From an uncultured virus (IMG/VR IMGVR_UViG_3300023274_000001) (lineage: Duplodnaviria > Heunggongvirae > Uroviricota > Caudoviricetes), in the IMG/VR virus record IMGVR_UViG_3300023274_000001, positions 64,001 to 128,000 of that record: 64,000 bases of DNA. One strand, given 5' to 3'. Every line of letters starts with the position of its first letter. The first letter of the stretch is position 1. Of this stretch, positions 33,336 to 57,837 are shown piece by piece. The position numbers were made by a program, and so were the translations under genes. The notes under the pieces were generated by a model. The model ran no database searches. It was not told the origin of the DNA and was given only the letters and a program-made list of their open reading frames with translations.

Positions 33336-33590
33336 ATGACTACTCCTACTGACTTCTCCGTCTGTCCCAGGTGCGGTGACGAGATCCCGCCGGACAATGA
33401 CGCGACCGGGGAAGGACCCGTGTACTGGACGATCTCCGAGGAACCGTTCTGCTCGATGGAATGCGTGATCTTCGTTCATCGCATGTGGCTGAAGCGGAAA
33501 GAAGGCCGGGCGGAGATGAGTGCGGCAGAAGTACTCGCAGCTCTGAAGGATCGCGCGGAACTGAACAAGCAGCAAGGACAAAACGGCTGA
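33336..33590 (+). CDS. Small Zn-finger protein
   Basis: CPRC...FCSMEC. Confidence 0.55.
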   Translation: MTTPTDFSVCPRCGDEIPPDNDATGEGPVYWTISEEPFCSMECVIFVHRMWLKRKEGRAEMSAAEVLAALKDRAELNKQQGQNG

Positions 33591-33599
33591 AGGCCAGAA

Positions 33600-34500
33600 T
33601 GCTCTGACGGATGCATGGTCCTAACCTGGGACCCAAATTCAAATTCAATTCCGCATTTGGTTTTCTACCGTGAGAGAATTTCGACTGAATTTCCCGCGAA
33701 TTTTCCCGCAGGTTTTCTCGCACCCGCTCCGCTCGCACTCCCGCTCACATTCCCTTGCATATCCATGTGCATTCATTGTGCATACGTGTGTGCATTGACG
33801 TGAGATATAGAGCTAGTGAATAGAGCGTAGATATCCCTGCATTAGCTAGCTGTTGATTCCCCTGCATTCCATCCCTTCCATTGCTGCGCATTCCCCCTGC
33901 ATTCCATCTGTTGCATTCCCCTGCACATTCCGAGTGTGTGTGATGAGAGACAGCAGATATCGAGACTCCGAATAGCCTCCCGCTTTCCCTCGCTTTCCCT
34001 TTCCTCTCACCTCCCGCTTTCCTCTCACTGCATAGGTTCATGTGTATGTGTGTATTGGGTGTGAGCAGTACAGACGTGAATGCGAAATAGCGATATCGAG
34101 ATACCCGCGCATTCCCTTTCCGAGTGCTCCCGCATTCCCCCTGAATTCCCGCGCGCTCCCGCTCCCGCTCACGTGCTCCCACCTGCACGCATACACACAT
34201 GATCATGCGCACCCTGCATACCGAGTGATCACCCGCTCACGTGCTCCCGCATTGCGTGCACTCCGGCACCGTGCGCCGTTCCCGCTCATGTGCTCCCGAG
34301 TGGCCAGGCAAGCGCGCTCACGCGCGAACGCGCATCGCGTCGCGCCCCCGCGCGCGCCGCTGCACGCGCGACCCCTCCGGCATGCTCCCGCTCCGTTCGC
34401 TCACATGTGTACTCACGTGCTCATCTGTGCTGATCAGTCCCCCTCGCTTCACATTCCCTCCCATCCCTCCCCTTCCCCTTCAAATCAGACATAGCTACAC
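33600..34500. repeat. Lower-GC, pyrimidine-skewed low-complexity region
   Basis: Many TGCATTCC(C), CCCGCT and GCTCAC repeats; no credible ORF. Confidence 0.7.
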
Positions 34501-34874
34501 ACACTGACCCTGCAATGTGGGAGCGCAACGACGTGCATGCACTCCGGGAGTCCTCACGTTTCCGCAGCTCAGGAGCATGATCACAGCAAACTCCGACATA
34601 CGGGACAACGCTGTGACCTGCGGTTTCAACAGTTCGTTGTACCGGTTTCGAGCGCGAGAAAGTGGAGCCATCCTGCCCAAATAAGTAACTAAGAGTGGTC
34701 TTCCCTCACTTGCTTCTCACTCTATGTATATGCATTGCAGGTCGCAGCGCTGACGTGCGCGTACGTGTATGAACCGGACATGTGGGAGTTATGAGCACAC
34801 ATGCCGCTGCCTTCCTCACGCTCGAAACCCTCCCCTCCCTGCCTGTCTCGCGTAGCTATGTCCGAGTTTGTACA

Positions 34875-34890
34875 TGTGACCTGCGTCACA
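34875..34890. promoter_or_regulatory. Perfect CRP-type palindrome TGTGA-N6-TCACA
   Basis: TGTGACCTGCGTCACA. Confidence 0.5.
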
Positions 34891-35119
34891 CTTTTATCGA
34901 TGCTTGCTACACCTACCGATTCGCTCCCTCGTTTGCTCACCGCAAATTCTTGACCCATCTGTCGTACATGTCCGTTTCGTGTCGTGAAGTCCGGTAGGTT
35001 CTCCATGCCTCTGACCTGCACAAACAGAAAGTCTCCCGACGTTTCCGCAGGTACAAGAGCTGACAGAACCTTTTTTGAGAAAAATCTTGAACTCCTCGTT
35101 TTCGCAGGTCAGAGCCCAT

Positions 35120-35135
35120 TGTGACCTGCGTCACA
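35120..35135. promoter_or_regulatory. Second identical CRP-type palindrome
   Basis: TGTGACCTGCGTCACA. Confidence 0.5.
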
Positions 35136-35249
35136 CACATTCGGTCCTGAAGTCCGGTAGCGCTCTGACCTGCACGTTTACTGTTCACCTGACACGTCGT
35201 CAGCAACCGCACACTTGCAATGGCAGCCATGTTTCTGGTCTAGTTCTGG

Positions 35250-36275
35250 TTGTCGCCACGACGCGGCGCCCGCTCCGGCGGGACGCGGCGCGGGGCGAGT
35301 GCAAGCGTCCGGGTTCTACCCCCGGACACACCCGCCCGGGTGTTCCTTCACATCACGTGAGGGGTGACCGGGAAGGGCTCACACGAACTCTGTGACGCAT
35401 GCGGTTCGCCGTAGCGACGTCGGGAGGGGAAACGGGAGGCACGATCCCCGGGTGAGGCGGACGGGAGCGAAACGCGCTAGCCGTAATGGCGCGGGATGCA
35501 CTCGAATGCGGTTCCTTGAGATTTTCGGAGCCCTCTCGTACACGATCCCCGGTAACCCGGGAGTACGGGAGCGGCGCAAACGGCAAGCCACGCGGTCCCC
35601 TAGGGGGCGCCGGAAAGCGTGGCCACTCGAACCGGTGGGAGGGGTCACCCTTTTGCCAGTCGGGAATACGGCGCACGGAGTACGTGACCACTTGCCGGAA
35701 TGCCTTACAGATCACAAGCGACGTGATCAGGGAATCCGGGAATGTCACAGGAAACGTGTTAAAGCGTTAGTCCGGTTCCCGCGAGTTGCGGCGCACGCAA
35801 GTACGGCCCTCTAGTCCGGGAGGTCAACCACAAGCCACGTGGGGAAACCGGGGGAATGGTGGGGAAAGCGTGTCGAAATAGTCAGTCCGCAGCAAAACCC
35901 GTTTCACCACTGGTTCGAGCCAAACGCACTATGCGGGTACGGCATAGATGATCACGCACTCTCCCGGGAGGGGTTCCGGGGGTGACGTGCGACGGTACGG
36001 CGGGATACCAGGGGTGTCGGAACCCCTGCCCGTGACGGACGGGAGCGCTTAGCGCTTCCGTCCCCCGGGGGATTCGGACGCGACACGTTGCGACGCGCCG
36101 GTTTCCACACGGAAATACGGGACGCGCTCCGATGTGGCGCCGTTTCCCCCGGGACGCATCACGTGCTGAGAGCACGAACGGACAACATGGTTTCGGTCCG
36201 GTAGGCAGGGAGGCTAGAACTCCCGTGACGCTACGACGGGGAAACTCTGTCCGTTCCTCCCTCCGCACGGAGGTT
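35250..36275 (+). ncRNA. Candidate large structured non-coding RNA (~1 kb)
   Basis: Dense nested helices, a UUCG loop, long-range pairing, G-U pairs on the + strand, no credible ORF. Confidence 0.6.
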
Positions 36276-36292
36276 CGGGAAGGATTCCGGCA

Positions 36293-36472
36293 ATGGTGAT
36301 CAGGCTTGACAACGGCGGAACGGTGACGGTCTCGGAAAGCGGGATCACGTACCGTCGGGGGCGCGAGATTCAGTGGCGCCCCCTCCCCGGAACGTACAGC
36401 GAATCGGCCGAATGGCTGGACACGTTGGCGAACGGGAATGCGGGAGTTCTGTTCACGTCGCGTAAGGCGTGA
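36293..36472 (+). CDS. Small protein (59 aa, below ORF-track cutoff)
   Basis: GGAAGGA RBS; MVIRLDNGGTVTVSESG... Confidence 0.6.
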   Translation: MVIRLDNGGTVTVSESGITYRRGREIQWRPLPGTYSESAEWLDTLANGNAGVLFTSRKA

Positions 36473-36531
36473 ACTGTCGGCAGACGTCGCACACGAGAGA
36501 TGCGACGCGGACAACGGAAAGCGGGAAGATC

Positions 36532-38334
36532 ATGAAGGTTGCGGGCAAGGTGTTGGCGGTTTCGGGCGACGGTTTCGCTCGGATGTACGGGCAGGGTGAA
36601 CGGGGCGCGGGACACGCGGTGTTCATTCCGGCCGGTTGTCAGGGTGACCCGTTGGGCGGGAGCGGCGCGCGAATCGTCCGGGCATGCGGGAGCACGCTCC
36701 CGACGGAAAAGGCGGCCGAGAAATTCCAGGGTGACAAGCGGTGCCCGAAGTGTGTCGAGTGGCTGGCCACGACGGACGGGACGGCTGCGCTCGAATCGGC
36801 CCGTGCGGAGCGTCACGCGTGGGAGTTCGGCGCCGATGACATCGCGGAACTGTTCAGCGTGGCGGACGTGGTGAACGGGACGGACGCCCGGGAGGACTCC
36901 GCCCCGGTTGCGGACATGGCCCCGGGTGCGGCGCGTGACGCTGCGGTGCGGGAGATCTGGACCGGCGGGAGCGACCCCGACCCGGTGGCCACGCGTAAGG
37001 CGGCGGTCGCTCGGGAGCGTAAGCGGCTGGCAGATCAGACGGAAAAGCGGGAGGCCGCTAAGCGGGAGGACTCCGCCCCGGTTGACCCCCCGGCGGACGG
37101 GAGCGGCGCGGAGATCATCGCGTCAACGGGTAAGACGCTCGCACAGATGGTCGCCGAAACGGCCACGTTCTACGCGAACGGCGGTGCGGTCTCCCCGGAG
37201 ATTGCGGCACTCCCGGCGCCCGGAACGGTGAGCCTGGCAAGCGGGACGGTTTCCGGGAGTGCGGCCGAAATTCTGGTCTGCACGTTCAAGGGTGAGGTTT
37301 CGACCGTCAACCCGGAGCGGACGCACGGGAAGTGCCCCGACTGCACCACGTACATTCCCCTTCTGCCCGGGGGCGCGGGAGGCAAGGAATCCGGCCCGAA
37401 GGTTTCCAAGATCAAGTGCGACGGGACCGGTTCGGCTCCGACGTCCGGGACCCTGGTTCTCCGCGACGATCACAGCGTGAGCGTGGCGGACGACTACGAC
37501 GGTAAGACGTCGGCCCCCTGCCCGGACTGCGGGCGCGTGATCGCGGTCTCTCGTGACCGGAACATGCGCAAGCACAACGGCTTGGAAGTGCGGGAGGTTG
37601 CCGAGTCGGCGGACGTCGACAAGATCGGCAAGCACAACGTGGGCGGGGTCGCGACTCCGGCCGGTAAGGGCCTGTCGTCCAAGTCGATTGAGACCGTGGA
37701 ACACGGGAGCGTGCCCGGTGACCCTGCCTCCGCTGACAAGCGGCGTGCGGCGGAGATCGAAGAGCGGGGCGCGGACGCGCGGGAGTTCAAGGGCGGTGCG
37801 GACGTCGGGGCGACGGTTGCCAAGGGTGCGCGACTGGCACTGTCCCGGGGTCACGGTTCGGTGGACGGGAGCGCGACGACCGGGAGTCAGAACATGGCGC
37901 CCGTGCAGCCCAAGGGGTGGGTAGGGGTCGCCGGTACGGGATCGCTTCCGGCCATGGTGCGCCCCGGGATTGACCCGGAAGTGACCGGGGACATCTGCCC
38001 CCTGCCGAAGTGCGGCGGACAGCGTAAGGACGTCGCACACAAGGGCAAGTCGTCGGGGTGGCGTCGGCGTCACTCCTCGCAGATCGGCGCCTATCTGGCC
38101 GGGCGCAAGGAAGAGCGGGACGCCAAGCGCGCGGCGCAGATCGAAAGCGGGGAGATCGTTCCCGCCTCGGTCAAGCGGGAGGCCCGTAAGGCGGCGTCGG
38201 TCGGATCGTTCAGTGAGGGCAACGTGAACGGGACCGTGACGCACGCGCCCCGCCCGGAGTTCGCCCCGAAGGGGACGCGCAAGCCTGCCCCGAACGGCAA
38301 CAAGCACACCCGCCGGAGCGGTCGCGCGGAGTAG
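36532..38334 (+). CDS. Large multi-Zn-ribbon hypothetical protein
   Basis: CPKC, CPDC twice, CPLPKC; basic C-terminus; start may be 36469. Confidence 0.75.
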   Translation: MKVAGKVLAVSGDGFARMYGQGERGAGHAVFIPAGCQGDPLGGSGARIVRACGSTLPTEKAAEKFQGDKRCPKCVEWLATTDGTAALESARAERHAWEFGADDIAELFSVADVVNGTDAREDSAPVADMAPGAARDAAVREIWTGGSDPDPVATRKAAVARERKRLADQTEKREAAKREDSAPVDPPADGSGAEIIASTGKTLAQMVAETATFYANGGAVSPEIAALPAPGTVSLASGTVSGSAAEILVCTFKGEVSTVNPERTHGKCPDCTTYIPLLPGGAGGKESGPKVSKIKCDGTGSAPTSGTLVLRDDHSVSVADDYDGKTSAPCPDCGRVIAVSRDRNMRKHNGLEVREVAESADVDKIGKHNVGGVATPAGKGLSSKSIETVEHGSVPGDPASADKRRAAEIEERGADAREFKGGADVGATVAKGARLALSRGHGSVDGSATTGSQNMAPVQPKGWVGVAGTGSLPAMVRPGIDPEVTGDICPLPKCGGQRKDVAHKGKSSGWRRRHSSQIGAYLAGRKEERDAKRAAQIESGEIVPASVKREARKAASVGSFSEGNVNGTVTHAPRPEFAPKGTRKPAPNGNKHTRRSGRAE

Positions 38335-55928: not shown

Positions 55929-57765
55929 GTGGCGGAAGACTGGGCGCGGGAGATCGAGACCGGGGATCACTCACTCCGCGTGGGGCCCGAGGGCGTCACG
56001 CTGGACGGGCCTGGTGGCGTGGAAGAACTGACCCCGAAGGACATCGAGCGCCTGTACCAGGCGCTCGTCAACTACCGCTCACACAGCGGACTGGACTGGG
56101 AGTGGGCCCGTCAGGGCTCCGACTGGTGGAAGTAGGAGAGGGAGAAGATGAACGAGACCACCATGCGCCTCATTCACTGGATCTGGGGCGAGCCGAAGCT
56201 GGCCGAGTTCCTGCGTGGCATCGCCGAGGGGGAGGAGATCCCGCCGCACCACGAGGTGTTCGAGTACGGGGATGACCAGCTCGCCTGCTGGATCTCCGAC
56301 CTCGTCTTCCCGGAGGACCGCAGCCGGGGGATCAAGGCGTGGATCGACCTGGGCGGCAGCGACGAGCGGGCCGACGCCCTGTATGAGACGCTGACCGAGG
56401 GCCGCAAGACGCCCGCCGGTCGCCTGAAGTGGCTCGACGAGATGGACATCGGCCTGATCCGGGACGCCCTGCTGGGGCACCGGGGAGGCTCGGACATCTA
56501 CGTCCACTCCCTGGTCAAGCCCTACCACCCGAACAACACCTACCGGGTGCACGACTCCGGGACCGTGTACGAGCGAGGGTGGACGTCGGCCTCCGGCGCC
56601 TGGGGGCTGGCCGAGAAGGACCGCCAGATCTGCCCCCGTCCCACGGTCTCGCCGTGCGGGTGCACGGTGGTCCAGCGTGGCTGACCTGAGCTGCACCTGC
56701 GGTCCCGGCACTTCGGTCGCCGGGACCCGGCAGGAGATCATCGAGCAGCGGCTGGCCCCGCTCTTCGGACTCACGGTTCCCGAGGTTCATGCCCTGCTGG
56801 ACCTGCTGGACCGGGCGAACGAGGCCACGCTGGACATCCCGGACGACAAGCGGGACCCGGACGGCGGGGAAACCGAGCGGCAGATGGCCCGGGAATCCGG
56901 CCGCACCGAGGGCTGGATCAAGAACTTTCTGGCCGCGTGGGAGTTCACGGGTGACACCCTGGACCGGGAACTGCACGAGAAGCATGGCCCATGGGGCGGT
57001 CTCTTCGGCAAACAGTCCTGAACAACTGGAACTTCACGGCCTAGGTCAGTAGTATTCGAGGGCCCCGGGAGAACCGGGGCCCGGGAGGAGAGACGGCATG
57101 CAGCAGATGGACGAGTACCGGCGCACCGCCAAGTTCGTGGACGTGGTGGCCGGTGAGCCGGGTCAGGTGCACACGGTGTACCGCTTCCCGAACACGGAGC
57201 ACGGTCACGGCCGGGCGGTCGAGTACCGCAACGCCTACAACGAGTCCCTGCGCGAGGCGATGGGGATCCCGAAGGCCGACCTGGAGCTGGAGAGCCCCGA
57301 CTGGGGTCAGCGCCGGGACGAGTATGACCGGGCCGAGAAGGTCGAGTCGTACCGGTACAACCAGGCGGGACTTTCGTACGTGCACCCGCCCAAGCTGATC
57401 GGGCCGGACGACCCGATGCCGACCGACTACCCGCACGAGTTCTGAGGAGATCCGGGATGGCCGAGCTGACCCGTGACACCACGCACTACATCGTCCATTC
57501 CACGGTCGTCGACCCGGGACCGAACTCCACCTTCGGCACCTCTCCCCCGTACTCGGGTGAGCGGGCACTGGAGCGAGCCGTGAAGGCGGCCCATGCGGAG
57601 CTGGCCGGGCGCCGCCGGGCGTTCGTGACGGCCCGGGACGGCGAGAGCCGGATCCTCGCCGTGATCCCGGTCGTGGACTACCCGGTCTTCGGGGACACGC
57701 ACGTCCCCGAGAACGCGCAGGACGCCATCACGGCCCTCTTCGAGGGGCTGGACTGGACGATCTGA
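55929..57765 (+). other. Small hypothetical genes 55929-56135, 56148-56684, 56677-57021, 57098-57445, 57457-57765
   Basis: RBS and codon usage. Confidence 0.7.
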
Positions 57766-57837
57766 CACGGACGAAACCGGGCCCCTGGGAAGGGCTCCCG
57801 GTAGGCGGAACAGGACCGCCCTGACGAGTCCCGTCAG
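57762..57837 (+). ncRNA. Type II hammerhead ribozyme
   Basis: GGAC-GAAA-CCGG..CCGG-UA^-GGCGG-loop-CCGCC-CUGACGA-GUCC: all core nucleotides and three stems present. Confidence 0.93.

What the first reader, a model, noticed from the sequence alone, without database searches (positions are those of the whole stretch)
35250..36275. Candidate ~1-kb highly structured ncRNA heading the early region
No credible ORF, yet nearly the whole stretch pairs. A long-range helix AGGGGUGACC (35360-69)/GGUCACCCUU (35643-52) encloses GGGCUC (35375)/GAGCCC (35528), GCGG-UUCG-CCGU (35401), CUCUCGUAC/GUACGGGAG (about 35533-35571) and GCCACGC/GCGUGGC (35587-35623). Further stems lie at 35307-26, 35710-28, 35929-47, 36009-28, 36037-63, 36162-76 and 36235-51, plus a T-loop-like UGGUUCGAGCCA (35911). 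G-U pairs favour a + strand RNA. The size and multidomain look recall large phage-associated RNAs such as GOLLD/ROOL, but I cannot match a known family. It could be a new large ncRNA, a ribozyme or an antitermination leader.
Basis: partly seen in the sequence, partly recalled or inferred. Interest (0 to 1): 0.82.

Follow-up and report, generated by a model that had tools for sequence, protein, structure and literature searches.

The report
Giant folded leader RNA with boxA
A gene-free kilobase at the head of the early genes of a giant Streptomyces phage encodes a large, elaborately folded RNA that also carries a near-exact copy of the host's ribosomal-RNA anti-termination signal, so it probably makes the host polymerase read on through the long early gene block.

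Summary
Window 35253-36290 is non-coding: substitutions show no codon periodicity and indels break frame. The + strand folds better than shuffles (z -5.07, 0 of 20). About eight related phage lineages keep the pairing through compensatory changes: core 35923-36065, 16 of 42 pairs; central domain, 16 of 104. No Rfam family matches. The RNA occurs once per genome, and only in BM-cluster Streptomyces phages and their metagenomic kin.

Its long-range helix 35360/35643 is not conserved. Its "T-loop" is the 3' strand of a covarying 13-bp helix, 35626-38/35907-19, that closes a ~290-nt domain.

New here: the conserved hairpin at 35510-35532 carries GUUCCUUGAGAU, 11 of 12 identical to the Streptomyces rrn leader and spacer box at the boxA positions. 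It is the only such site in the 188.7-kb genome, and 1 of 3000 shuffles reaches it.

Best reading: an untranslated leader that loads host Nus factors to resist termination over a ~51-kb gene block. What the rest of the fold does is unknown, and no transcript has been seen. This scan found the same RNA earlier in three related genomes.

The parts
35218..35231 (+). Invariant box GCAATGGCAGCCAT upstream of the first hairpin; role unknown (promoter or start region?)
   Evidence: Identical in all 10 sequences that cover it
35253..35298 (+). SL1, a nearly invariant 5' hairpin (17-19 bp); the Satis and L018 types carry a 6-nt shorter tip and G-to-A changes at both bulges
   Evidence: 0 non-standard cells, no covariation because it hardly varies
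35308..35326 (+). SL2 hairpin with a conserved 7-nt loop UUCYAWC; absent in the Satis and L018 types
   Evidence: Four different stems keep the pairing
35332..35378 (+).
   Evidence: compensatory pairs 86/130, 101-104/112-115 of A3
35394..35420 (+). Tetraloop hairpin; loop is UUCG, CUUG, GCAA or GAAA depending on lineage
35473..35493 (+). Hairpin with conserved loop (A)GCCGUAA; its 5' flank holds one copy of the oriented 14-mer GGCGGACGGGAGCG (35456)
   Evidence: Three different stems, same loop; 14-mer counts
35510..35532 (+). Hairpin GGUUCC/GGAGCC with an 11-nt loop. It carries the boxA-like GUUCCUUGAGAU (35511-35522)
   Evidence: 11 of 12 identical to the Streptomyces rrn box. Only site at 11 of 12 or better in the genome, and 1 of 3000 shuffles reaches that. 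GG-N-U-Y-Y-U-U-G is kept in 18 of 18 phage sequences
35533..35571 (+). Hairpin CUCUCGUAC/GUACGGGAG enclosing CCCGG-UAAC-CCGGG
   Evidence: U-A to C-G change in Frankenweenie, G002 and L038
35587..35623 (+). Hairpin with conserved CCGGAAA in the loop
   Evidence: Stems differ and stay paired in L036 and L018
35626..35919 (+). Central closed domain. Closing helix 35626-38/35907-19, nested helix 35659-72/35770-82, and hairpin 35710-28 with an AACCUAA-type loop. The domain comes in two exchangeable module types among relatives
   Evidence: Type 1: 104 pairs, 96.3% of cells paired, 16 pairs with double changes against 3.9 in shuffles. Type 2: 28 of 101 pairs compensatory, with an analogous closing helix
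35923..36065 (+). Most conserved core. P1 35929-34/35942-47, P2 35955-59/35987-91, P2a 35961-67/35976-82, P3 36000-04/36029-33, P4 36009-15/36022-28, P5 36037-48/36052-63
   Evidence: 42 pairs, 93.8% paired, 16 with double changes against 6.7 +/- 1.3 (0 of 500 shuffles); slid controls 39-48%. Model R1 finds one copy per genome
36066..36160 (+). Variable linker hairpins; relatives carry insertions and deletions here
36162..36273 (+). 3' domain. Hairpin 36162-76, long helix 36177-85/36249-57 with inner covarying stems, and hairpin 36260-73 that pairs a GGAGG. The whole domain is absent in the Satis type
   Evidence: 9 of 48 pairs compensatory
36293..36472 (+). First ORF (59 aa) of the co-oriented block; annotated in Frankenweenie, Kela and Satis
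34614..35175 (.). Upstream control hub (context only). Six TGACCTGC copies and two TGTGACCTGCGTCACA palindromes, found nowhere else in the genome in this form

Best explanation
Window 35253-36290 is the template of a roughly 1,040-nt untranslated, multi-domain structured RNA read from the + strand. It lies just inside the 1-kb terminal repeat and a promoter/operator hub, and directly ahead of a roughly 51-kb block of co-oriented genes of unknown function.

About 260 nt into the RNA, a conserved hairpin displays a near-exact copy of the Streptomyces rRNA-operon boxA. I infer the following steps. The nascent boxA loads host NusB-S10. Together with NusA and NusG, this converts the host RNA polymerase into an rrn-type termination-resistant complex. 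That complex protects the long untranslated, G-rich RNA from Rho, carries transcription through the hairpin-rich intergenic regions of the early block, and may help the long-range helices fold.

Shown here: the stretch is non-coding; the fold is conserved and strand-specific; the boxA match exists and is conserved.

Inferred: transcription and its start point; Nus factor binding; antitermination. The role of the remaining ~900 nt of conserved fold is unknown.
For: Non-coding and under purifying selection. There is no 3-periodicity and indels shift the frame. The leader is less diverged than the next gene: 80 mismatches over about 1,040 nt against 224 over 1,666 nt for Frankenweenie, and 35 against 224 for G002.

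Fold:
- z -5.07 on the + strand, against -2.35 on the - strand.
- Compensatory pairs: 16 of 42 in the core, 15 of 67, 16 of 104, 28 of 101, 9 of 48.
- Stable-tetraloop swaps at one hairpin.
- 39 G-U cells in the core.

boxA:
- GTTCCTTGAGAT at 35511 was the best short match between the leader and 700 nt upstream of Streptomyces 16S.
- The host motif is invariant in 5 leader loci, and recurs before 23S in the 4 loci that cover the spacer. These are the two canonical boxA positions (passages in PMC13753749 and PMC5676007).
- It is the only site at 11 of 12 or better in 188.7 kb on both strands, and 1 of 3000 shuffles reaches that.
- It is kept in 18 of 18 phage sequences. The variants GCUCUUUG and GAUCUUUG match the E. 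coli and B. subtilis boxA cores quoted in PMC2724277 and PMC13753749.

Context:
- No terminator-like site lies between the RNA and the first ORF.
- GC skew stays positive from 35000 to about 86000.
- The phage encodes no NusG or NusB of its own, while a Streptomyces genome does carry the NusB domain.
Against: - No transcript, 5' end or promoter has been shown. The sigma-70-type scan found none, and no RNA run holds the stretch.
- boxA needs only about 12 nt, so it does not explain a 1-kb fold with closed domains and conserved loops.
- Half of the boxA lies in a predicted 6-bp stem, whereas boxA is described as a linear element.
- In JustBecause/Kela the 3' half of the box is altered.
- The identification of the Streptomyces rrn motif as boxA rests on its position and its likeness to published boxA sequences, not on a Streptomyces experiment that I could read.
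- The comparison that found the match gave E = 0.15 for that hit alone.
Confidence: 0.5

Rival explanations
1. It is a free-standing large functional RNA, released from the early transcript by processing, that acts in trans. It could be an RNP scaffold, a ribozyme, or a decoy that titrates host factors, Nus factors included. On this reading boxA only ensures that the RNA is completed.
For: The architecture is more complex than any leader needs. There are closed domains with 13-bp and 12-bp long-range helices, many sequence-conserved loops and junctions, and a core at 80-90% identity across lineages whose flanks are near 45%. It is more conserved than the neighbouring gene. It is the first thing transcribed next to the genome end.
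Against: No terminator or recognisable processing site separates it from the first ORF. No catalytic or known RNP motif was found. Whole modules (SL2/SL3, the 3' domain) are dispensable in the Satis and L018 types.
Confidence: 0.27
2. It is a passive string of stability and processing hairpins, comparable to RNase III sites and a 5' protective hairpin in a T7-type early leader, with no higher-order function.
For: Most supported elements are local hairpins. P5-type hairpins with the oriented 14-mer recur in intergenic regions downstream, with 5 copies all on the + strand between 35456 and 41604. The 5' hairpin is invariant.
Against: Covarying long-range helices enclose about 290 nt. Loops and junctions are conserved in sequence, which plain stability hairpins do not require.
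Confidence: 0.13
3. It is a DNA-level element or a replication primer: an origin whose G-rich transcript forms an R-loop, or single-strand DNA hairpins used in replication or packaging next to the terminal repeat.
For: It lies beside the terminal repeat. The transcript would be G-rich, with a GC-skew switch near 35000.
Against: GNRA, UNCG and CUUG tetraloop swaps and frequent G-U pairs point to RNA. The skew follows gene orientation for 51 kb. No iteron-like repeats lie inside 35250-36290.
Confidence: 0.06
4. It hides a small protein-coding gene.
For: Open frames of 100-170 codons occur in all six frames.
Against: No frame is kept across lineages. Substitutions are spread evenly over the three codon positions, and 1-, 2- and 7-nt indels separate close relatives.
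Confidence: 0.02

Closest known systems
rRNA-operon leader and spacer antitermination signals (boxA; Nus-factor complex with NusA, NusB, S10, NusG)
   Same: A boxA-type sequence lies early in a long untranslated, highly structured transcript. The phage box is 11 of 12 identical to the host's own leader box. Protection of untranslated RNA from Rho and help with long-range folding are the described roles (passages in PMC13753749 and PMC2724277; PMC8632103 seen as listing and abstract only).
   Different: It is in a phage, ahead of protein genes rather than rRNA. No boxC-like continuation is present. The box sits partly in a hairpin stem. Nus binding is untested.
Lambda nut sites (boxA, spacer, boxB hairpin, with N protein)
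   Same: A phage early-operon leader carrying boxA next to conserved hairpins, and hairpin motifs that recur further down the operon.
   Different: No N-like protein was recognised: the 59-aa first ORF and nine further ORFs have no Pfam hit. The leader is about ten times larger. The order here is hairpin then boxA.
boxA ahead of CRISPR arrays and suhB in gammaproteobacteria
   Same: boxA is used to carry polymerase through long untranslated RNA (passage in PMC13753749).
   Different: Different host phylum and a different downstream cargo. No large conserved fold is attached.
GOLLD and ROOL, large ornate RNAs often found in phages and prophages
   Same: Size class (0.6-1 kb), multi-domain fold with covariation, phage location, unknown function.
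   Different: No covariance-model match at gathering score or at E up to 10. It is not next to tRNA genes. It belongs to Actinobacteria phages. It is contiguous with an operon and carries boxA.
T7 early leader with its first RNase III site (own knowledge, not tested here)
   Same: An untranslated structured leader between strong early promoters near the entering genome end and the first early gene, with hairpins between the early genes.
   Different: It is far larger and more conserved than a processing site requires. RNase III cleavage is untested.

Membership tests
Any Rfam 15 family (including GOLLD, ROOL, group I/II introns, 6S, tmRNA, RNase P, hammerheads) | Match to the family covariance model at its gathering score | tested here: not met
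   0 matches in the whole window at gathering score. At E up to 10 over 33500-36600 there were 4 chance-level hits of 10-20 bits.
Nus-factor antitermination leader (rrn / lambda nut type) | boxA sequence like that of the host's rrn operons | tested here: met
   11 of 12 identical to the box found in 5 Streptomyces rrn leaders and, with 1-2 changes, in 4 16S-23S spacers. The site is unique in the phage genome, and 1 of 3000 shuffles reaches it.
Nus-factor antitermination leader (rrn / lambda nut type) | Box lies in the nascent transcript downstream of the promoter and upstream of the terminators or untranslated RNA to be read through | tested here: inconclusive
   The position fits: about 260 nt after the conserved 5' hairpin, and ahead of 770 nt of untranslated RNA and a 51-kb co-oriented block. 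The promoter and transcript start are not mapped.
Nus-factor antitermination leader (rrn / lambda nut type) | Binding of NusB-S10 and termination-resistant elongation | not testable with these tools
   The host genus has the NusB domain. The phage has no NusB or NusG.
Lambda-type nut site | boxB hairpin bound by a phage N-like arginine-rich protein | tested here: inconclusive
   A conserved-loop hairpin lies 17 nt upstream. No N-like protein was recognised among the 10 downstream ORFs.
   ARAGORN finds 0 genes. The string is one strand of a covarying 13-bp helix and is not conserved in type-2 lineages.
Protein-coding gene | Codon periodicity of substitutions and frame-preserving indels | tested here: not met
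   27/27/26, 12/10/13 and 103/93/104 against three relatives, with indels of 1, 2 and 7 nt.

The most novel reading that the evidence does not exclude
The kilobase is a new class of giant phage RNA that works as a molecule in its own right, for example an RNP scaffold, a ribozyme, or a decoy made first after DNA entry that captures host transcription or ribosome-assembly factors. On this reading it imitates an rRNA operon (5' hairpin, boxA, long-range closed domains) so that it is made fast and in full by the host's rRNA-type transcription machinery.
Probability: 0.25. Interest if true: 0.9.

Novelty: new variant of a known kind. Interest (0 to 1): 0.72.

Why it matters
Large conserved RNAs without a known function are rare. 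This one is about 1 kb, has strong comparative support, and sits in cultivable phages (Satis, JustBecause and others) of a laboratory host, so it can be studied directly.

The host-type boxA gives a first testable handle on what it does. It would be, as far as my searches show, the first case of an actinobacteriophage borrowing the rRNA antitermination signal: no paper in the held library combines boxA, Streptomyces, bacteriophage and antitermination.

If confirmed, it would show how a giant phage drives host polymerase through tens of kilobases of early genes without a polymerase or Nus factor of its own. It could also supply a portable anti-termination leader for Streptomyces engineering.

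Tried and rejected
Expression. No RNA holder is listed for 34800-36600. Laying four runs gave only single 145-203-nt contigs at low depth in three runs labelled RNA-Seq that are "probably DNA" or a guess, plus a patchwork of DNA contigs. I draw nothing from this.

Homologue hunts:
- Of 19 metagenome pattern hits, 5 are real relatives and 14 are coding-sequence chance matches.
- Of 10 viral-contig hits to the 5' hairpin pattern, 4 (L017, L019, L022, L025) are chance.
- L047-L049 are chance.
- None of 8 genome-contig pattern hits matches model R1.

Structure ideas checked by eye and dropped:
- A kissing contact between the GCCGUAA loop and UACGGC strings. Partners are not co-conserved.
- A pseudoknot between the P1 loop and the J2/3 segment. 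There is no co-variation.
- G-quadruplexes at 35421-40 and 35838-68. The G-runs are not conserved in type-2 modules.
- An alternative pairing of CCGUGCGG with CCGCACGG in the 3' domain. It is possible, but both strings are invariant, so it cannot be tested.
- A helix between 35251-57 and 35574-79 proposed by RNAalifold. It is invariant and therefore untested.

Other negative results:
- The - strand of the terminal-repeat region shows no consistent folding signal.
- Promoter scan: 0 sigma-70-type sites.
- Pfam: 0 families for 10 downstream ORFs.
- rrn leader from G004: the contig ends 18 nt upstream of 16S, so I used other genomes.
- Several 9-10-nt matches between the leader and the 45 nt around the host box are individually at chance level. 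I treat them as a curiosity.
- A second, weaker box-like string at 35069-35082 in the hub (9 of 12) is not conserved in the Satis type.

Papers:
- PMC6687918: read whole.
- PMC10652959: I read part 1 of 2, that is the main text and the start of the reference list.
- PMC2724277, PMC13753749 and PMC5676007: passages only.
- PMC8632103 and the others: listing and abstract only.
- The two M. tuberculosis NusA/nut papers are not held, so what I know of the mycobacterial box is recall and is not used.
- Supplements were not opened. Figure S1 of PMC13753749 (rrn leader alignments) might bear on the boxA consensus.

Full report
Where it lies.
The window is bases 64001-128000 of a 188,697-bp virus record. 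Its relatives are the BM-cluster Streptomyces siphoviruses with very long prolate heads:
- Frankenweenie, about 92% identical over the region;
- JustBecause and Kela, about 66%;
- Satis, Quantum, Kradal and EhyElimayoE, about 59%.

In those linear records the homologous stretch lies at the extreme right end in reverse orientation. About 2.5-2.9 kb there carries no annotation, between the record end and the last genes. The record end of Frankenweenie aligns to window position ~33623. The published genomes have direct terminal repeats of 1,038-1,049 bp (PMC6687918 read whole; PMC10652959 part 1 of 2, main text). By inference the repeat is therefore roughly window 33623-34660. After it come a hub of repeated motifs (34614-35175), the finding (35250-36275), a 59-aa ORF at 36293, and then co-oriented genes. 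GC skew stays positive from 35000 to about 86000, so the element heads a gene block of about 51 kb. Ten ORFs at the start of that block have no Pfam family.
Noticed in passing
window 34614-35175: Control hub. TGACCTGC occurs six times here (five on +, one on -), against 17 scattered copies in the remaining ~188 kb of the genome. There are two identical palindromes TGTGACCTGCGTCACA (34876, 35121), a duplicated GAAGTCCGGTAG, and CTCTGACCTGCAC twice, plus one inverted copy of the shorter core TCTGACCTGC. The longer forms occur nowhere else in the genome.
   Followed up: partly
window 35456, 37092, 37860, 40565, 41604: The 14-mer GG[CT]GGACGGGAGCG occurs 5 times, all on the + strand and all within 6.2 kb at the start of the early block, and nowhere else in 188.7 kb. 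Three copies flank GC-rich hairpins (one in the leader, two just after stop codons). Two lie inside the 600-aa ORF, in the same reading phase.
   Followed up: partly
window 33623-34850: The presumed terminal repeat and the stretch after it are C-rich on the + strand (GC skew -0.21 at 34000-35000), with CTCCCG/TTCCC-type direct repeats. This mirrors the G-rich leader, but no consistent folding signal was found on the - strand.
   Followed up: partly
window 35069-35082: A second, weaker box-like string (TTTTTTGAGAAAAA) lies in the hub. It matches the host box at 9 of 12, is kept in JustBecause, is changed by one base in Frankenweenie, and is not kept in Satis.
   Followed up: partly
window 36532-38334: The second ORF (600 aa) has several CxxC pairs and long low-complexity stretches, and no Pfam family. 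It is present in all relatives but with variable length.
   Followed up: no
whole window: cmscan at gathering score finds no Rfam family anywhere in the 64 kb. The hammerhead ribozyme that another first-stage note proposes near 57762-57837 is therefore not recognised by Rfam's hammerhead models.
   Followed up: partly
Streptomyces rrn loci L061, L065 (about -232 to -198 before 16S): Four of the best short exact matches (9-11 nt) between the phage leader and the rrn leader fall within 45 nt around the host box, although they are scattered in the phage (35303, 35511, 36115, 36249). Each is at chance level individually.
   Followed up: no
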